Assembly (NCBI RefSeq): GCF_041886205.1
Contig: NZ_CP169029.1
DNA: 64,000 nt
Source: Escherichia coli
Lineage (GTDB): Bacteria > Pseudomonadota > Gammaproteobacteria > Enterobacterales > Enterobacteriaceae
Reading direction: 5' to 3' (one strand)
The notes under the pieces are model-generated. The model did no database searches. It was not told the DNA's origin and saw only the letters and a list, made by a program, of their open reading frames with translations. Position 1 is the stretch's first letter; every line of letters starts with the position of its first letter. This document shows positions 2,794-32,231 of this stretch, one piece after another. The position numbers and the translations under genes are program-made.

Positions 2794-3301
2794 TTTTCTT
2801 CCGTGCGAGCATTAAGACATCCGGGTTGACCTTTACACCGCTACGCGATAAGGCATGCAGGTTTACGGCAAATCTGACGTCATTATTGTGGATGATCAGA
2901 CAAAAGGCGCTACCAATAATGCACTCGGTATTTTGTTCGGCAATTAATAATAACGCCTTTGACGGATATTGTTCGGTTAATTCCATCTGGAATGTCGGTG
3001 ACTCGTTGCCAAAATAAAAACCATTGCAGCCTGAAATCATCGCCTCTTGTTGAGTGTGAATGATGACAGGCAGATAAGGCAAAGATGTCGCGGCATTCTC
3101 TTGTAGGGCGGTACTAAAACGTGAAGATGAAAAGATACATAACTTTGGTGGCCCTGATAGCGCAGGCCAGCGGGTGTAACTGACAATACCGGAAACCATC
3201 ATACGCACGTTTTTCGCAACGTCAGAAGGCTCCTGAGCGAGTATTGGTGCTCCCGTCAGCAGGAGAATCAGAAGTAAGAACAGTCGGTGAGAAAAACGCA
3301 T
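2783..3301 (-). CDS. yfiR: Periplasmic repressor of DgcN, YfiR
   Basis: 172-aa ORF with signal peptide, first gene of the yfiRNB operon. Confidence 0.86.
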
Positions 3302-3450
3302 TCAGGGATCCCCACCATCTTCGCTCGAAATGCATCGATATTTTTTCAGAATACTCATTAAAATATCATTTTTTCATGCGATAGTCATCAATGTGAGAAA
3401 TAAAACACAATGAGTAAAATTTTATGTTTAATTTATTTGTGGGGTTTTAA

Positions 3451-6269: not shown

Positions 6270-7430
6270 TCAGGTTGGATCAACAGGCACTACGTTCTCA
6301 CTTGGGTAACAGCCCAATACCTTCATCGAACGGGTGATGTCCCCTAACTCTTTCAATGCTTTTTGCATTTCCGCTGATTCAAGATTGGCCTGAATATCCA
6401 GATAAAACATCTCTTCCCATGGATTACCGTGAATCGGGCGTGACTCCAGACGGGTCATAATCAGATTGTGGTTGCGCAATACCAGCAATGCTTCAACCAG
6501 CGCACCAGCTTGTTGTCCGGTCGCCATTAACAACGTCGTTTTCGCCGGAACCTGGTCAGACACATTAATGGCTTTACGTGCCAACACCACAAATCGGGTG
6601 AAGTTTTGTCGCTGATTCGCTTCAATACGCTCCAGTACCTGCAAACCGTACAAAGTGCCGCCAGCTTCGCTTCCCAACGCAGCAACATGCGGTGATTTTG
6701 CCTGTGCAACCTTTTCCATTGCCGCAGACGTACTTTCGGTATATTCAATCTTCCAGTGCGGATAACGATTAAGGAATTTGCTGCATTGCTGGAATGGCTG
6801 CGGATGGCTGTAGACCGTATTAATGGTGGATAAATCAGTCGTGCCGGAGACCAACAAACAATGGTCGATAGTTAACGTCATCTCGCCAACAATCGACAAG
6901 CTGGTATGTTGCAGCAGATCGTAAACGTCGTTTATGGCACCGGAGCTGGTATTTTCAATCGGTACGACGGCATAGTCGGCCTGGCCGGTTTCCACCTGAT
7001 TAAAAATATCGGCAAATTTGGCGCAGCCACTTTCAATGAATTGCTCAAAGTGACGGGCAGCATACTGGCGCGCCGCAAGATGGGAATAAGAACCTTTGGG
7101 GCCGAGAAAAGCGATGCGTGCTGAGTGCGGATTAATTTTATTGAGATGTTGCTGGAGCAAAGCCTGCTGAGTTAATACGGAATCTTCAATGATGAGCTGG
7201 AACAGGCGAGTAATGTAATGGGCGTCCAGATGGTGCGCTTTACCGAGCGTAATTAATCTTTCCAGTAAATCGCGTTCACGATCAATATCACGTACCGGGC
7301 GATGCGAGAGCAGTTTGGCTTTTCCCACCTCGACGGCCAGTTCGCGCCGCTCTGCGAGTAATGCTAATAATTTTTCATCCAGCGCGCTGATTTTCTCTCG
7401 CAGCGCCAGTAACGGGTTTTCCGATGTCAT
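6270..7430 (-). CDS. pheA: Bifunctional chorismate mutase / prephenate dehydratase (P-protein)
   Basis: 386-aa [25 protein letters not shown]...; pheL leader upstream. Confidence 0.95.
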
Positions 7431-7450
7431 AGTGTTGCCTTTTTGTTATC

Positions 7451-7486
7451 AATAAAAAAGGCCCCCCGATTTGGGAGGCCTTATTG
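7451..7486 (-). terminator. pheA attenuator terminator hairpin (minus strand)
   Basis: On minus strand ggcctcccaaatcggggggcc followed by ttttttatt, between pheL stop and pheA start. Confidence 0.7.
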
Positions 7487-18818: not shown

Positions 18819-18911
18819 ACAACGCCGAAGATGTTTTGGCGGATTGAGAGAAGATTTTCAGCCTGATACAGATTAAATCAGAACGCAGAAGCGGTCTGAT
18901 AAAACAGAATT

Positions 18912-19031
18912 TGCCTGGCGGCCTTAGCGCGGTGGTCCCACCTGACCCCATGCCGAACTCAGAAGTGAAACGCCGTAGCGCCGATGGTAGTGTGGGGTCT
19001 CCCCATGCGAGAGTAGGGAACTGCCAGGCAT
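18912..19031 (+). rRNA. rrfG: 5S ribosomal RNA
   Basis: TGCCTGGCGGCC...GGGAACTGCCAGGCAT, 120 nt. Confidence 0.95.
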
Positions 19032-19042
19032 CAAATCATGCG

Positions 19043-19070
19043 AAAGGCCATCCGTCAGGATGGCCTTTTT
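19043..19070 (+). terminator. rrnG terminator hairpin
   Basis: aaaggccatccgtcaggatggccttttt immediately after 5S. Confidence 0.65.
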
Positions 19071-19090
19071 GCGCTGGCGGCAGAAACAAT

Positions 19091-19130
19091 GCCGGATGCG
19101 ACGCCAGCGCGTCTTATCCAGCCTGCGCGA
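19091..19130. repeat. REP-like (repetitive extragenic palindrome) element
   Basis: gccggatgcgacgccagcgcgtcttatccagcctgcg resembles the REP consensus. Confidence 0.5.
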
Positions 19131-19382
19131 GGACATAAATGATGTAATTTCAGCAAGTTATCTCGACATCCTCTACCTGCAAGTCAAAGTGCTTATTCAC
19201 GATCAATCCCAACCACATCGATTTTCTATATAACCAGAATCCCCCAAAATCATTCTCCTGCTAACGAATTCACATTTGTGGTTGTATAATTATATGCAAC
19301 AATTACATAACATTTAATTCACCAAAAAACAAACAAAGCAATCGACAGAAAACATCAGGTTTATGGCAGGAGTAATATTCAC

Positions 19383-20681
19383 ATGACAGAAAGCACTGTA
19401 ACGACAGGCGATGAACTGACGTCCAAAGAGACCCGCCGTCGCATATGGGCAATTGTAGGGGCATCATCCGGCAATCTGGTAGAGTGGTTTGATTTCTATG
19501 TCTACTCGTTCTGCTCCCTCTACTTTGCTCACATATTTTTCCCTTCAGGTAACACTACTACGCAACTATTACAAACAGCTGGCGTTTTTGCTGCGGGCTT
19601 TCTAATGCGCCCTATAGGCGGCTGGCTATTTGGCCGCATAGCCGATAAACATGGTCGCAAAAAATCGATGCTTTTATCGGTGTGTATGATGTGTTTCGGC
19701 TCACTGATTATCGCCTGTTTGCCAGGCTACGAAACAATCGGTACCTGGGCCCCGGCATTATTGCTTCTTGCTCGTTTATTCCAGGGATTATCCGTTGGCG
19801 GAGAATATGGCACCAGCGCCACCTATATGAGTGAAGTCGCTGTCGAAGGGCGCAAAGGATTCTATGCCTCGTTCCAGTATGTCACGTTAATTGGTGGGCA
19901 ACTGCTGGCGTTACTGGTTGTGGTTGTTCTGCAACAGACGCTTGATGACACCACGTTGAGACAGTGGGGCTGGCGCATACCTTTTGTGATCGGTGCCGTG
20001 TTGGCAATTGTGGCTTTGTGGTTACGTCGCCAGTTAGATGAAACTTCGCAACATGAAACGCGAGCGTTAAAAGAAGCGGGCTCAATGAAAGGGCTATGGC
20101 GCAATCGCCGTGCATTCATGATGGTGCTAGGCTTTACTGCTGCGGGCTCGCTCTGCTTTTACACCTTCACCACCTATATGCAAAAGTATCTGGTCAACAC
20201 CGCTGGTATGCATGCCAACATGGCGAGTGGCATTATGACTGCTGCATTGTTTGTATTCATGCTTATTCAACCACTCATTGGTGCACTGTCGGATAAAATT
20301 GGCCGCCGGACATCAATGTTATGCTTCGGTTCGCTGGCTGCTATTTTTACCGTCCCGATCCTGTCGGCATTGCAGAATGTCACCTCACCTTATGCAGCCT
20401 TTGGGCTGGTGATGTGCGCATTGCTGATTGTCAGTTTTTATACCTCTATCAGTGGCATCCTTAAAGCAGAAATGTTTCCGGCACAGGTTCGCGCCCTGGG
20501 CGTCGGCCTTTCTTATGCAGTTGCTAACGCCTTATTTGGCGGCTCTGCGGAGTATGTGGCGCTGTCGCTGAAATCGGTAGGGATGGAAACAGCATTCTTC
20601 TGGTATGTGACCTTGATGGCCGTGGTGGCGTTTCTGGTTTCTTTGATGCTACATCGCAAAGGGAAGGGGATGCGTCTTTAG
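19383..20681 (+). CDS. kgtP: Alpha-ketoglutarate:H+ symporter (MFS)
   Basis: 432-aa polytopic membrane ORF; position just after rrnG. Confidence 0.92.
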
Positions 20682-29806: not shown

Positions 29807-30688
29807 ATGGATCTGCGCCGTTTTATTACGCTTAAAACCGTGGTGGAAGAGGGTTCCTTTTTGCGTGCTTCGCAAAAATTGTGCTGCACACAATCGACGG
29901 TGACTTTTCATATTCAGCAGCTTGAGCAGGAGTTCTCGGTACAGTTGTTTGAGAAAATTGGTCGACGGATGTGCCTTACCCGCGAGGGGAAAAAGCTGCT
30001 GCCGCACATCTATGAACTTACCAGAGTGATGGATACGCTTCGTGAGGCTGCCAAAAAAGAGTCGGATCCGGACGGGGAACTACGCGTTGTTTCGGGCGAA
30101 ACGCTGCTCTCTTACCGAATGCCGCAGGTGTTGCAGCGTTTTCGGCAACGCGCACCAAAAGTACGTTTATCGTTGCAGTCACTGAACTGTTACGTGATCC
30201 GTGATGCGCTACTGAATGATGAGGCCGATGTCGGAGTTTTTTATCGCGTAGGGAATGATGATGCTCTGAATCGACGAGAGTTGGGTGAACAATCACTGGT
30301 GCTGGTGGCTTCACCGCAAATTGCAGATGTCGATTTTACTGAGCCGGGAAGACATAACGCCTGTAGCTTTATTATCAATGAACCACAATGTGTCTTCCGG
30401 CAGATATTTGAGAGCACGCTGCGCCAGCGACGGATCACGGTGGAAAACACCATTGAGCTTATAAGTATCGAAAGCATCAAGCGTTGTGTCGCGGCAAATA
30501 TCGGGGTCAGTTACTTACCGCGTTTTGCGGTGGTAAAAGAGTTGGAGTGCGGAGAATTAATTGAATTGCCTTTTGGCGAACAGTCGCAGACCATTACGGC
30601 AATGTGCGCTCACCATGCCGGAAAAGCGGTTAGCCCGGCGATGCACACTTTTATTCAGTGTGTTGAAGAGAGTTTTGTGGCTGGATAA
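29807..30688 (+). CDS. yfiE: LysR-family transcriptional regulator YfiE
   Basis: 293-aa ORF with N-terminal HTH and LysR substrate-binding domain; divergent from eamB. Confidence 0.85.
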   Translation: MDLRRFITLKTVVEEGSFLRASQKLCCTQSTVTFHIQQLEQEFSVQLFEKIGRRMCLTREGKKLLPHIYELTRVMDTLREAAKKESDPDGELRVVSGETLLSYRMPQVLQRFRQRAPKVRLSLQSLNCYVIRDALLNDEADVGVFYRVGNDDALNRRELGEQSLVLVASPQIADVDFTEPGRHNACSFIINEPQCVFRQIFESTLRQRRITVENTIELISIESIKRCVAANIGVSYLPRFAVVKELECGELIELPFGEQSQTITAMCAHHAGKAVSPAMHTFIQCVEESFVAG

Positions 30689-30746
30689 AAATAATGTCGG
30701 GATTAAACCCGGCATTTAACTTGTCGACAAAGTGCGCTTTATTCAT

Positions 30747-30844
30747 GCCGGATGCGGCGTGAACGCCTTATCCGGCCTACAAGATCGTGCAAATTCAATA
30801 TATTGCATGAGCCACGTAGGCCTGATAAGCGTAGCGCATCAGGC
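30747..30844. repeat. BIME: two inverted REP elements
   Basis: gccggatgcggcgtgaacgccttatccggcctac (30747..30780) and inverted copy gtaggcctgataagcgtagcgcatcaggc (30816..30844). Confidence 0.65.
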
Positions 30845-30896
30845 AGTTTTGCGTTTGCCAGCACTTTTAATACCAGGCTTAAACCCGGCATTGAGA

Positions 30897-32231
30897 TTAC
30901 TCTTCTGTCGTTTGCGGTGGCACGCCCGTTCCGCTCGGTTTACGGCGCTTACCAATATTTTTGGTGTCGCGATGGCGTTTTTTCACCCGCGGCTTCTCTT
31001 TCTCTTTAGCTTTTTTCTTCTCGGCGCGTTTTGCCAGTACTTTCTTCGATGGCTTGCCGGTCTGCTTCTCGCTTGGCGCACGCGTTTTCGGGCGTAACTC
31101 ATCAATTACGCGAGCTTTAATTGGCTCTTCAATATAGCGACCAACTTTGCCCAGCAGCAGATGGTCATGGGCTTCTACCAGCGAAATTGCGGTGCCTTTA
31201 CGACCGGCGCGCGCGGTACGTCCGATACGGTGCAAATAAGTATCGCCACTGCGCGGCATATCGAAGTTAAAGACGTGGCTGACGTCAGGAATGTCGATAC
31301 CGCGCGCGGCAACATCGGTTGCAACCAGTACGTTTACGCGACCTTCGGTCAAACGCTTGATCGCTTCGTTACGCTTGCCTTGTACCATCTCACCTTCGAG
31401 ATAGCAGTTGTTGATGCCCGCTTCGCGCAGCCAGTTTGCCAGCTCATGCACACGTTCACGCTTACGCACAAACACAATTGAGCGGGTCGCTTCCGGCTGT
31501 TTTAACAGATGCACCAGCAACGCGGTTTTATGCTCAAGATCATCGGCGCGGTAATACCACTGATGAATTTTTTTGCGCTCACGGGTGGACGGATTGGCAG
31601 AAACTTCCACCGGGTCTTCCAGCAGACGCTCGGCAAAGTCCTGAATCGCATCGCCTTCCAGCGTTGCCGAAAAGAGCAGGGTCTGTTTACGCCAGCGCGT
31701 TTCGCCAGCAATATGTTCGATATCCTGAGCGAAGCCCATATCCAGCATACGGTCTGCTTCGTCGAGGATCAGCGTTTCAACCGCGCGGCAATCGAAGTTC
31801 TCTTCTTTTATGTATTGCAGCAGACGTCCGGTCGTGGCGACCACGATGTCCTGATTTTCGCTGAACACTTCCGCGTGGTTCATATAGGCTACGCCGCCGG
31901 TGATGGTGGCGATATCCAGATGCGTATGTTTCGCCAGTTCGCGGGCATGATCGGCTACCTGCATCGCCAGCTCGCGAGTTGGGGTGAGGATCAAAATACG
32001 CGGCGGACCGGATTTCTTACGTGGGAAATCGAGCAGGTGCTGCAACGCTGGCAGCAGATACGCCGCCGTTTTACCGGTGCCTGTCGGCGCAGAACCGAGT
32101 ACATCACGGCCATCGAGCGCAGGCGGAATGGCGGCAGCCTGAATGGCGGTCGGGCGAGTGAAACCTTTATCCTCGAGGGCTTCCAGCAGGCTTTCGTCGA
32201 GTTCAAGTTCGGAAAAAGTCGTTACAGTCAT
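30897..32231 (-). CDS. srmB: ATP-dependent DEAD-box RNA helicase SrmB
   Basis: 444-aa ORF with Q-motif, [10 protein letters not shown] Walker A, DEAD, SAT and a basic C-terminal tail. Confidence 0.94.

What the first reader, a model, noticed from the sequence alone, without database searches (positions are those of the whole stretch)
30747..30844. REP/BIME elements at three intergenic sites
Canonical REP palindromes occur after rrnG (19091..19130), between yfiE and srmB as an inverted pair forming a BIME (30747..30844), and after purL (53489..53516). These are typical of E. coli intergenic regions downstream of convergent or highly expressed genes and can act as mRNA stabilisers or gyrase/IHF binding sites.
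Basis: partly seen in the sequence, partly recalled or inferred. Interest (0 to 1): 0.1.

Follow-up and report, generated by a model that had tools for sequence, protein, structure and literature searches.

The report
BIME-1 repeat that duplicated a terminator hairpin
The three sites are ordinary, long-known E. coli REP repeats, but the middle one is a 152-base mobile BIME-1 unit that landed on the hairpin between two genes and copied that hairpin onto both of its sides, a footprint that recurs at many other copies and bears on how these repeats move.

Summary
A consensus scan finds exactly four REP units in the 64 kb, at the three stated sites, all scoring above 200 random simulations.

- **Site 2 (30747-30844)** is a textbook BIME-1: Y REP, a 35-nt L linker with an IHF-type motif, and an inverted Z1 REP.
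- **Sites 1 and 3** are solitary, degenerate REPs with GCAG in place of GTAG. Site 3 has a perfect stem.

This is a known kind of element, so the finding as written is ordinary.

Follow-up added one thing. The BIME-1 core sits in a 152-bp unit (30717-30868) that is present in 2524 of 5426 E. coli genomes. It is absent from the other E. coli genomes and from E. fergusonii, Salmonella and Citrobacter, which all carry a single hairpin there. In the filled allele that 24-bp hairpin is duplicated on both sides (30693-30716 and 30869-30892).

In 93 BIME-1 copies from other loci and species, 33 have such a direct repeat exactly at the unit ends (about 1% expected). These represent 29 different targets, and about two-thirds fold as stable, terminator-like hairpins.

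I infer hairpin-directed insertion with staggered joining at the two feet of the hairpin. I found no description of this in the papers I could read. The key 1990s papers were not available.

The parts
30693..30716 (+). Left (yfiE-proximal) copy of the duplicated target hairpin, AATGTCGGGATTAAACCCGGCATT
   Evidence: Direct repeat of 30869-30892. The empty allele has one copy. It folds at -12.3 kcal/mol as plus-strand RNA and -8.3 as minus-strand RNA.
30717..30746 (+). Left outer segment (A flank) of the BIME-1 unit, TAACTTGTCGACAAAGTGCGCTTTATTCAT
   Evidence: Conserved in paralogous copies. Family consensus is CAGATTGCTGACAAAGTGCGCTTTGTTCAT.
30747..30780 (+). Y-type REP, with its CTAC end facing the linker
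   Evidence: 34/34 matches to the Y consensus. Sequence confirmed.
30781..30815 (+). L linker. The IHF-type motif ATTCAATATATTG lies at 30793-30805.
   Evidence: One mismatch to WATCAANNNNTTR. The 13-mer is exact in 49 and within one mismatch in 82 of 129 linkers from other loci. Rfam RF02751 (ES036/CssrF) matches 30781-30823.
30816..30844 (-). Short Z-type REP (Z1 in the BIME-1 definition), inverted relative to Y. GTAG lies at 30816-30819 on the plus strand.
   Evidence: 29/29 matches. Sequence confirmed.
30845..30868 (+). Right outer segment (B flank) of the BIME-1 unit, AGTTTTGCGTTTGCCAGCACTTTT
   Evidence: Conserved in paralogues. Family consensus is AATTTTGCGTTTGTCATCAGTCTC.
30869..30892 (-). 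Right (srmB-proximal) copy of the duplicated target hairpin, AATACCAGGCTTAAACCCGGCATT on the plus strand
   Evidence: Direct repeat of 30693-30716. It folds at -12.2 kcal/mol as minus-strand RNA and only -2.9 as plus-strand RNA. MG1655 carries a compensating C>T.
19091..19126 (+). Solitary long-type REP, degenerate (CCAG for CCGG, tail CTGC). It lies after the rrnG terminator and before kgtP.
   Evidence: 32/36 matches. 5S rRNA is at 18914-19029. The MG1655 orthologue is more degenerate.
53484..53517 (-). Solitary Y-like REP after purL, with a perfect 11-bp stem and tail CTGC
   Evidence: 28/34 matches on the minus strand. It is intact in the window and in O157. In MG1655 it is removed by an 18-bp deletion between two CGGCAT repeats.

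Best explanation
Site 2 is a BIME-1: a Y REP, the conserved L linker with an IHF-type site, and an inverted Z1 REP. This core sits inside a 152-bp unit (30717-30868) that has conserved outer segments and imperfect terminal inverted repeats.

**Shown**
- The unit is a derived insertion carried by about 46% of E. coli genomes.
- The ancestral site, kept in the other E. coli genomes and in E. fergusonii, Salmonella and Citrobacter, holds one hairpin between the convergent genes yfiE and srmB. The E. coli and E. fergusonii form is AATGCCGGGCTTAAACCCGGCATT.
- In the filled allele that whole 24-bp hairpin is present on both sides of the unit.
- The same signature is found at about a third of BIME-1 copies elsewhere: a direct repeat exactly at the unit ends, of variable length, with about two-thirds folding as stable hairpins.

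**Inferred**
- BIME-1 integrates at hairpin or cruciform targets, typically bidirectional terminators.
- The two strands are joined at opposite feet of the hairpin, so repair copies the hairpin onto both sides. Each flanking gene then keeps a hairpin at its 3' end.
- The enzyme is unknown. [quoted passage not shown]

**From the literature, not tested here**
- Once in place, the unit offers an IHF site.
- As part of the 3' untranslated regions it can act as a partial terminator and as a barrier to mRNA decay.

Sites 1 and 3 are solitary, decayed REPs. They lack the GTAG, and at site 3 also the stem mismatch, that RAYT needs.
For: - **Identity.** REP scores. REP pair, linker and outer segments shared at about 91% with copies at fepA-entD and fdnI-yddM. 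Linker motif conserved across 129 linkers. The REP pair folds at -47.5 kcal/mol, z = -5.9.
- **Polymorphism.** 2524 of 5426 genomes hold the filled allele. The rest match in two pieces spanning 176 bp less. The alignment shows the empty allele with one perfect hairpin.
- **Polarity.** Salmonella, Citrobacter freundii and E. fergusonii each have one hairpin and no BIME. The two copies in the window differ from the single hairpin at different positions, so the empty allele is not a simple crossover product of them.
- **Generality.** 33 of 93 elements have a direct repeat anchored at the unit ends, scoring above the 99th percentile of mismatched left/right flank pairs. These are 29 independent targets, 10-33 bp long with a median of 20. 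Mean fold energy is -10.1 against -1.9 kcal/mol for control segments. Flanks are A-rich upstream and T-rich downstream (junctions).
- **Age.** Repeat score rises with the element's identity to the family consensus (Spearman 0.52, p = 1e-7). Among elements with both outer segments intact, 25 of 49 have the repeat.
- **Second filled/empty pair.** At fdnI-yddM there are empty, single and tandem alleles.
- **Literature.** BIME-1 is defined as Y + Z1 + L with an IHF site, is about 140 bp, and is present or absent among isolates (PMC3333891, PMC1187871).
Against: - 60 of the 93 elements show no anchored repeat. Many of these have a hairpin on one side only. Duplication is therefore either not obligatory or is often lost.
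- IS200/IS605-type tyrosine transposases, the relatives of RAYT, make no target duplications (PMC3333891, PMC2817692).
- The outer segments and the linker of BIME-1 are absent from the REPs that flank rayT in K-12.
- The hairpins in the window are not followed by T runs, and the simple scan calls no terminator there.
- Preservation of each hairpin copy on the strand of its adjacent gene is clear at this locus. It is not significant across 20 other loci.
- No IHF, transcript or transposition data were available for this locus.
Confidence: 0.85

Rival explanations
1. The BIME-1 is ancestral at yfiE-srmB, and the empty allele arose by deletion through recombination between the two flanking hairpin copies. 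The literature describes this as 'excision of a whole BIME-1'.
For: The flanking 24-bp repeats could support such a deletion. Tandem and single alleles at fdnI-yddM show that the repeats do recombine. My recollection of the Bachellier 1997 abstract, which I could not read here, is that it speaks of excisions.
Against: E. fergusonii, Salmonella and Citrobacter all have the single hairpin. The empty hairpin is a perfect palindrome. To derive from the present-day copies it would need alternating left, right, left, right segments. Deletion also would not explain where the two hairpin copies came from in the first place.
Confidence: 0.05
2. The hairpin repeats are not made at insertion. The unit inserts beside a hairpin, and a second copy arises later by local duplication or gene conversion, selected because the gene on the other side lost its terminator.
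For: Many elements have a hairpin on one side only. Repeats are more frequent between convergent genes, 17 of 34, than between tandem genes, 6 of 30 (p = 0.019).
Against: The repeats abut the unit ends to the base at 29 independent targets. They are most perfect in the elements closest to the consensus, that is the youngest. A later event would have to recreate the same junction each time.
Confidence: 0.1
3. Site 3 (53489-53516) is an ordinary local hairpin after purL that only resembles a REP.
For: It has a perfect 11-bp stem, no GTAG and no stem mismatch. It occurs at one place per genome by megablast. A separate hairpin with a T run follows at about 53540-53568.
Against: 28 of 34 bases match the Y consensus, including an exact 13-base head GCCGGATGCGGCG. 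That exceeds the best of 200 random simulations.
Confidence: 0.15
4. The linker region encodes a small RNA gene (Rfam ES036/CssrF) rather than being part of a repeat.
For: RF02751 matches 30781-30823 at 49.9 bits, against a gathering score of 37.6.
Against: The same family matches the linker of BIME-1 copies at unrelated loci in other genomes. The matched stretch is the conserved L motif. The family therefore models the repeat.
Confidence: 0.05

Closest known systems
BIME-1 (also called RIB or RIP elements) of E. coli
   Same: One Y REP and one Z1 REP in inverted orientation, a conserved long linker with an IHF site, a single unit of about 140-150 bp, location at the 3' ends of genes, and presence or absence among isolates (PMC3333891, PMC1187871).
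   Different: Nothing at the level of the element. The hairpin-sized flanking duplication is not mentioned in any paper I could read.
REPINs mobilised by RAYT (TnpA_REP)
   Same: Two inverted REPs that fold into one long hairpin. A rayT gene is present in the species.
   Different: REPINs and IS200/IS605 elements are described as leaving no target duplication. The outer segments and the linker of BIME-1 are absent from the REPs around rayT in K-12.
Bacterial MITEs such as Correia and ERIC elements
   Same: Small size, no coding capacity, imperfect terminal inverted repeats (AGAyTGnTGACAAA) and flanking direct repeats.
   Different: MITE target duplications have a fixed short length set by the transposase. 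Here the length runs from 10 to 33 bp and, in about two-thirds of the targets, follows the target's own stem-loop.
IS200/IS605-family insertion sequences
   Same: Hairpin-dependent, single-strand tyrosine transposases related to RAYT. An IS200C copy sits directly after the T run of the fdnI-yddM terminator hairpin in some E. coli genomes.
   Different: That IS200C insertion did not duplicate the hairpin.
Group IIC introns, which insert just after terminator stem-loops (from my own knowledge, not checked here)
   Same: The target is recognised by its hairpin structure rather than its sequence.
   Different: They are retroelements, leave no target duplication, and are unrelated in sequence.

Membership tests
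REP (E. coli Y / Z1 / Z2 palindromic units) | Sequence match to a family consensus above chance | tested here: met
   34/34, 29/29, 32/36 and 28/34 matches, against a random maximum of 72%. Searches support it independently.
REP (E. coli Y / Z1 / Z2 palindromic units) | GTAG tetranucleotide at the 5' foot of the hairpin, required for TnpA_REP binding and cleavage (PMC3479197) | tested here: inconclusive
   Met at both arms of site 2. Not met at sites 1 and 3, which carry GCAG.
REP (E. coli Y / Z1 / Z2 palindromic units) | Imperfect stem with the conserved mismatch (PMC3479197) | tested here: inconclusive
   Present at sites 1 and 2. Absent at site 3, which has a perfect 11-bp stem.
REP (E. coli Y / Z1 / Z2 palindromic units) | Extragenic location | tested here: met
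   Site 2 lies between yfiE and srmB, site 1 between rrfG and kgtP, and site 3 between purL and glmY.
REP (E. coli Y / Z1 / Z2 palindromic units) | Many copies per genome | tested here: met
Site 3 gives one place by megablast, which is too insensitive for a 34-base degenerate copy.
BIME-1 | One Y and one Z1 REP in inverted orientation, as a single unit rather than a tandem array | tested here: met
   Definition taken from PMC3333891 and PMC1187871.
BIME-1 | Long conserved L linker carrying an IHF consensus | tested here: met
   35-nt linker. ATTCAATATATTG has one mismatch to WATCAANNNNTTR and is identical to the family core.
BIME-1 | IHF actually binds | not testable with these tools
   Needs a footprint or ChIP experiment.
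BIME-1 | Whole unit present or absent among isolates | tested here: met
   2524 of 5426 genomes are filled; the others lack 176 bp.
MITE | Terminal inverted repeats | tested here: inconclusive
   The consensus ends CAGATTGCTGACAAA and GAGACTGATGACAAA share 11 of 15 positions. The window copy is diverged.
MITE | Target duplication of fixed length | tested here: not met
   Duplications are 10-33 bp, and about two-thirds fold as the target's own stem-loop.
RAYT-mobilised REPIN | Cognate rayT gene flanked by the same element ends | tested here: not met
   K-12 rayT is flanked by Y and long-type REPs. No A flank, B flank or L motif is found there.
Intrinsic terminator (for the duplicated hairpins) | G+C-rich stem-loop followed by a U run | tested here: not met
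   The scan calls none in 30500-31050. In the empty allele the minus-strand hairpin is followed by AUUAUUUUUA.

The most novel reading that the evidence does not exclude
BIME-1 elements insert by a structure-directed reaction. The target is a stem-loop, usually a bidirectional terminator, and the two strands are joined at opposite feet of the stem. Every insertion then leaves a target duplication whose length equals the hairpin. On this reading the footprint has gone unrecognised and gives the first concrete handle on how REP/BIME elements transpose in vivo.
Probability: 0.4. Interest if true: 0.7.

Novelty: already known. Interest (0 to 1): 0.35.

Why it matters
As an annotation the finding is routine. 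REPs and BIME-1 have been catalogued in E. coli since the 1980s and 1990s.

The follow-up matters for a different reason. How these very abundant repeats get into new sites is still described as not established and 'semi-random' (2026 preprint 10.64898/2026.03.23.713779). This locus offers a clean pair of filled and empty alleles with outgroups. Together with 29 independent targets in five genomes, it argues that BIME-1 inserts at hairpins and duplicates them.

That would explain three things: why these elements sit at gene ends, why so many lie inside bidirectional terminators, and why they do little harm, since each neighbouring gene keeps a hairpin. It also gives a direct prediction for a transposition assay.

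Tried and rejected
- A fuzzy-regex REP scan allowing indels timed out. I replaced it with an ungapped scan.
- The degenerate head pattern with 2 mismatches was too loose to be informative: 70 hits against 42 expected.
- Reference repeat annotation could not be checked. The RefSeq MG1655 record lists only CDS in this stretch, and U00096.3 is not held.
- Key older papers are not held: Bachellier 1997, Boccard & Prentki 1993 and Gilson 1991. Whether the hairpin duplication was described there remains open.
- Nine full-text searches found no description of it.
- I tested whether the rule 'each hairpin copy is preserved on the strand of its adjacent gene' holds generally. It is clear in the window but not significant over 20 loci (p = 0.12).
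- I looked for a link between the BIME-1 ends and rayT. None of the motifs occur near rayT in K-12.
- The simple terminator scan found nothing around the BIME.
- A search for a third clean empty site (tsx locus, Pseudocitrobacter) gave single-hairpin alleles, but these carry a different REP doublet beside the hairpin, so they are not clean.
- A paper that mentions both srmB and REP (PMC4682653) proved irrelevant.

Full report
**1. Observation.**
I scanned both strands, ungapped, with the Y, short-Z and long-Z REP consensus sequences. This gave exactly four units:
- 19091-19126 (+), long type, 32/36 matches;
- 30747-30780 (+), Y type, 34/34;
- 30816-30844 (-), short Z type, 29/29;
- 53484-53517 (-), Y-like, 28/34.

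The best score in 200 Markov simulations of the window was 72% identity, and no other position exceeded that. The tail motif matches without mismatch only at the two arms of site 2. A pattern built from the two tails recovered 120 loci in other genomes. The window is E. coli, 100% identical to strain LHM10-1 and the reverse complement of MG1655 around 2.69-2.75 Mb.

**2. Anatomy of site 2.**
yfiE ends at 30688. srmB, on the minus strand, ends at 30897. Between them, in order:
- a 24-bp hairpin (30693-30716);
- a 30-nt outer segment (30717-30746);
- the Y REP (30747-30780);
- a 35-nt linker (30781-30815) with ATTCAATATATTG at 30793-30805;
- the inverted short REP (30816-30844), whose GTAG faces the linker;
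- a 24-nt outer segment (30845-30868);
- a second copy of the hairpin (30869-30892).

The literature defines BIME-1 as one Y plus one Z1 REP separated by the long L linker, which often carries an IHF site. It gives the size as about 140 bp (PMC3333891, PMC1187871). On that definition the short REP here is Z1, and the long type at site 1 is Z2. The REP pair folds into one long hairpin on either strand (-47.5 and -46.1 kcal/mol, z about -5.5).

**3. The unit is an insertion that duplicated the target hairpin.**
Of 5426 complete E. coli genomes, 2524 hold the filled allele. The rest match the flanks in two pieces spanning 176 bp less. An O157 genome shows the empty allele: a 32-bp spacer with a single perfect hairpin, TAATGCCGGGCTTAAACCCGGCATT.

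In genomes with the empty allele, the best match to the 150-bp insert lies elsewhere, at fepA-entD or fdnI-yddM. It covers positions 4-146 of the insert at about 91% identity. The whole stretch between the hairpin copies is therefore the repeated unit.

Three outgroups settle the polarity. Salmonella enterica, Citrobacter freundii and E. fergusonii each have one hairpin after srmB and no BIME, and the E. fergusonii hairpin is identical to the O157 one. The two copies in the window each differ from that ancestral hairpin at two positions, and the positions differ between copies. The empty allele therefore cannot be a simple crossover product of today's copies. Four filled alleles share the same left-copy substitutions and the two G>A changes of the right copy, which argues for one old insertion. 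MG1655 adds one further change in the right copy (see section 6).

**4. The footprint is general.**
I took 93 single BIME-1-type elements with enough flank and asked for a direct repeat anchored within 4 nt of the unit ends. The sources were E. albertii, two Pseudocitrobacter genomes, three Escherichia genomes and the window. Results:
- 33 elements score above the 99th percentile of mismatched left/right flank pairs.
- They represent 29 independent target sequences.
- Repeat length is 10-33 bp, median 20.
- Mean fold energy is -10.1 kcal/mol, against -1.9 for control segments.
- 66% fold at -8 kcal/mol or better, against 3% of controls.
- The 8 nt upstream are 52% A and the 8 nt downstream are 61% T.

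The junctions are uniform: hairpin | CAGATTGCTGACAAAGTGCGCTTTGTTCAT - Y - L - Z1 - AATTTTGCGTTTGTCATCAGTCTC | hairpin. The repeat score rises with the element's identity to the family consensus (Spearman 0.52, p = 1e-7). Among elements with both outer segments intact, 25 of 49 have the repeat, and most of the others have a strong hairpin against one end. With crude gene calls, repeats are found at 17 of 34 convergent gene pairs and 6 of 30 tandem pairs (p = 0.019).

**5. A second locus.**
At fdnI-yddM, E. coli genomes show four alleles:
- a single hairpin;
- hairpin - BIME-1 - hairpin;
- hairpin - BIME-1 - hairpin - BIME-1 - hairpin;
- an IS200C inserted directly after the hairpin's T run, without duplicating the hairpin.

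At the tsx locus of Pseudocitrobacter relatives, some genomes have hairpin - BIME-1 - hairpin. Others have the single hairpin with a different REP doublet beside it. These hairpins are repeated targets.

**6. What the duplicated hairpins do here.**
The left copy folds well as plus-strand RNA, the yfiE transcript (-12.3 kcal/mol against -8.3 on the other strand). The right copy folds well only as minus-strand RNA, the srmB transcript (-12.2 against -2.9). All three stem substitutions are transitions that leave G-U pairs on the strand of the adjacent gene. MG1655 adds a compensating change that restores an A-U pair. This fits selection for a 3'-end hairpin on each gene, but it rests on four substitutions. 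The same asymmetry is not significant across 20 other loci. Neither copy is followed by a U run, and the simple scan calls no terminator. In the empty allele the srmB-strand hairpin is followed by AUUAUUUUUA.

**7. Sites 1 and 3.**
Site 1 is a long-type REP 25-30 nt after the rrnG terminator hairpin, with CCAG for CCGG and tail CTGC. The MG1655 copy is more degenerate. Site 3 is a Y-like REP on the minus strand with a perfect stem and tail CTGC. It is intact in the window and in O157. In MG1655 and others it is collapsed by an 18-bp deletion between two CGGCAT repeats. Since GTAG and the stem mismatch are both required for TnpA_REP binding and cleavage (PMC3479197), these two are probably inert remnants.

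**8. What is known.**
REPs, BIME-1, the IHF site in L, and the presence or absence of whole BIME-1 units among isolates are all in the literature (PMC3333891, PMC2817692, PMC1187871). Current functional work describes REPs as partial Rho-dependent terminators and mRNA stabilisers in 3' untranslated regions. It places about 60% of them between convergent genes, and 78 within 306 bidirectional terminators. It calls the insertion mechanism not established and 'semi-random' (10.64898/2026.03.23.713779). IS200/IS605 relatives make no target duplication (PMC3333891). I found no mention of hairpin-sized duplications at BIME-1 ends in nine searches. The 1990s papers most likely to contain such a remark are not held.

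**9. Mechanism and rivals.**
What is shown: a precise 152-bp unit, insertion polarity at this locus, and hairpin-sized direct repeats at the unit ends at 29 targets. What is inferred: the target is recognised as a stem-loop or cruciform, and the two strands are joined at opposite feet, so gap repair copies the hairpin to both sides. Cleavage across the base of a cruciform would give the same product.

The enzyme is open. rayT is present in the species, but in K-12 it is flanked by Y and long-type REPs without the BIME-1 ends or linker.

The rivals fit less well:
- deletion from an ancestral filled site is contradicted by the outgroups;
- later duplication of the hairpin under selection fits poorly with the base-exact junctions and with the correlation between repeat quality and element youth;
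- site 3 as a plain hairpin is outweighed by its 28/34 match to the Y consensus;
- the linker as a small-RNA gene is undercut because Rfam ES036 also hits unrelated BIME-1 copies.

**10. Verdict.**
The finding as written is correct and ordinary: known repeats at expected places. The added value is the insertion footprint. It is robust in the data. Whether it is new to the field I could not settle.

Noticed in passing
window 30781-30823 (+); also L003, L022, L023, L063, L088: Rfam family RF02751 (ES036/CssrF 'sRNA') matches the L linker plus the start of the Z1 REP. It also matches the same part of BIME-1 copies at unrelated loci in other genomes, so the family appears to model a repeat rather than one small-RNA gene.
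   Followed up: partly
window 19133-19400: The stretch between the rrnG-distal REP and the kgtP start is a rare allele. Only 8 of 5426 E. coli genomes match at least 80% of 18900-19400. The alignment to MG1655 is poor across this stretch, with many mismatches and several gaps.
   Followed up: partly
window 53489-53516 versus L136 (MG1655): MG1655 and many other strains lack the centre of the purL-distal palindrome. An 18-bp deletion lies between two CGGCAT direct repeats, the classic slippage across a hairpin.
   Followed up: yes
L131 (E. coli MN06021, fdnI-yddM), about 250-955: An IS200C copy is inserted directly after the T run of the same terminator hairpin that is the BIME-1 target in other strains. 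The hairpin is not duplicated.
   Followed up: partly
L130 (E. coli C-SRM-3), 185-620: Tandem allele hairpin - BIME-1 - hairpin - BIME-1 - hairpin. The flanking hairpin repeats evidently support amplification of the unit.
   Followed up: partly
L139 and L142 versus L140, L141, L143, L144 (tsx-HNH spacer, Pseudocitrobacter relatives): The same terminator hairpin is flanked on both sides of a BIME-1 in some genomes. In others it is single, with a different REP doublet lying against its A run.
   Followed up: partly
L009 (E. albertii) 6973-7477; L030 (E. albertii) around 1650-1712: L009 holds four BIME-1-like units in tandem with a period of about 147 bp. L030 has a 72-79-bp direct repeat that includes a hairpin and the start of the outer segment.
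   Followed up: no
L128 (E. fergusonii) 2836-3313: yfiE is reduced to a 3' remnant and eamB is missing. grcA follows srmB, while the single srmB/yfiE hairpin is retained.
   Followed up: no
L132 (E. coli 2015C-3101), Z1 REP: In this filled allele the foot of the Z1 REP reads GTAGATACTGATAAG in place of GTAGGCCTGATAAG.
   Followed up: no
L086 and L121: Contigs of 261-262 bp labelled Desulfosporosinus sp. OT and Methylobacterium frigidaeris consist of an enterobacterial BIME-1. This is probably contamination of those assemblies.
   Followed up: no
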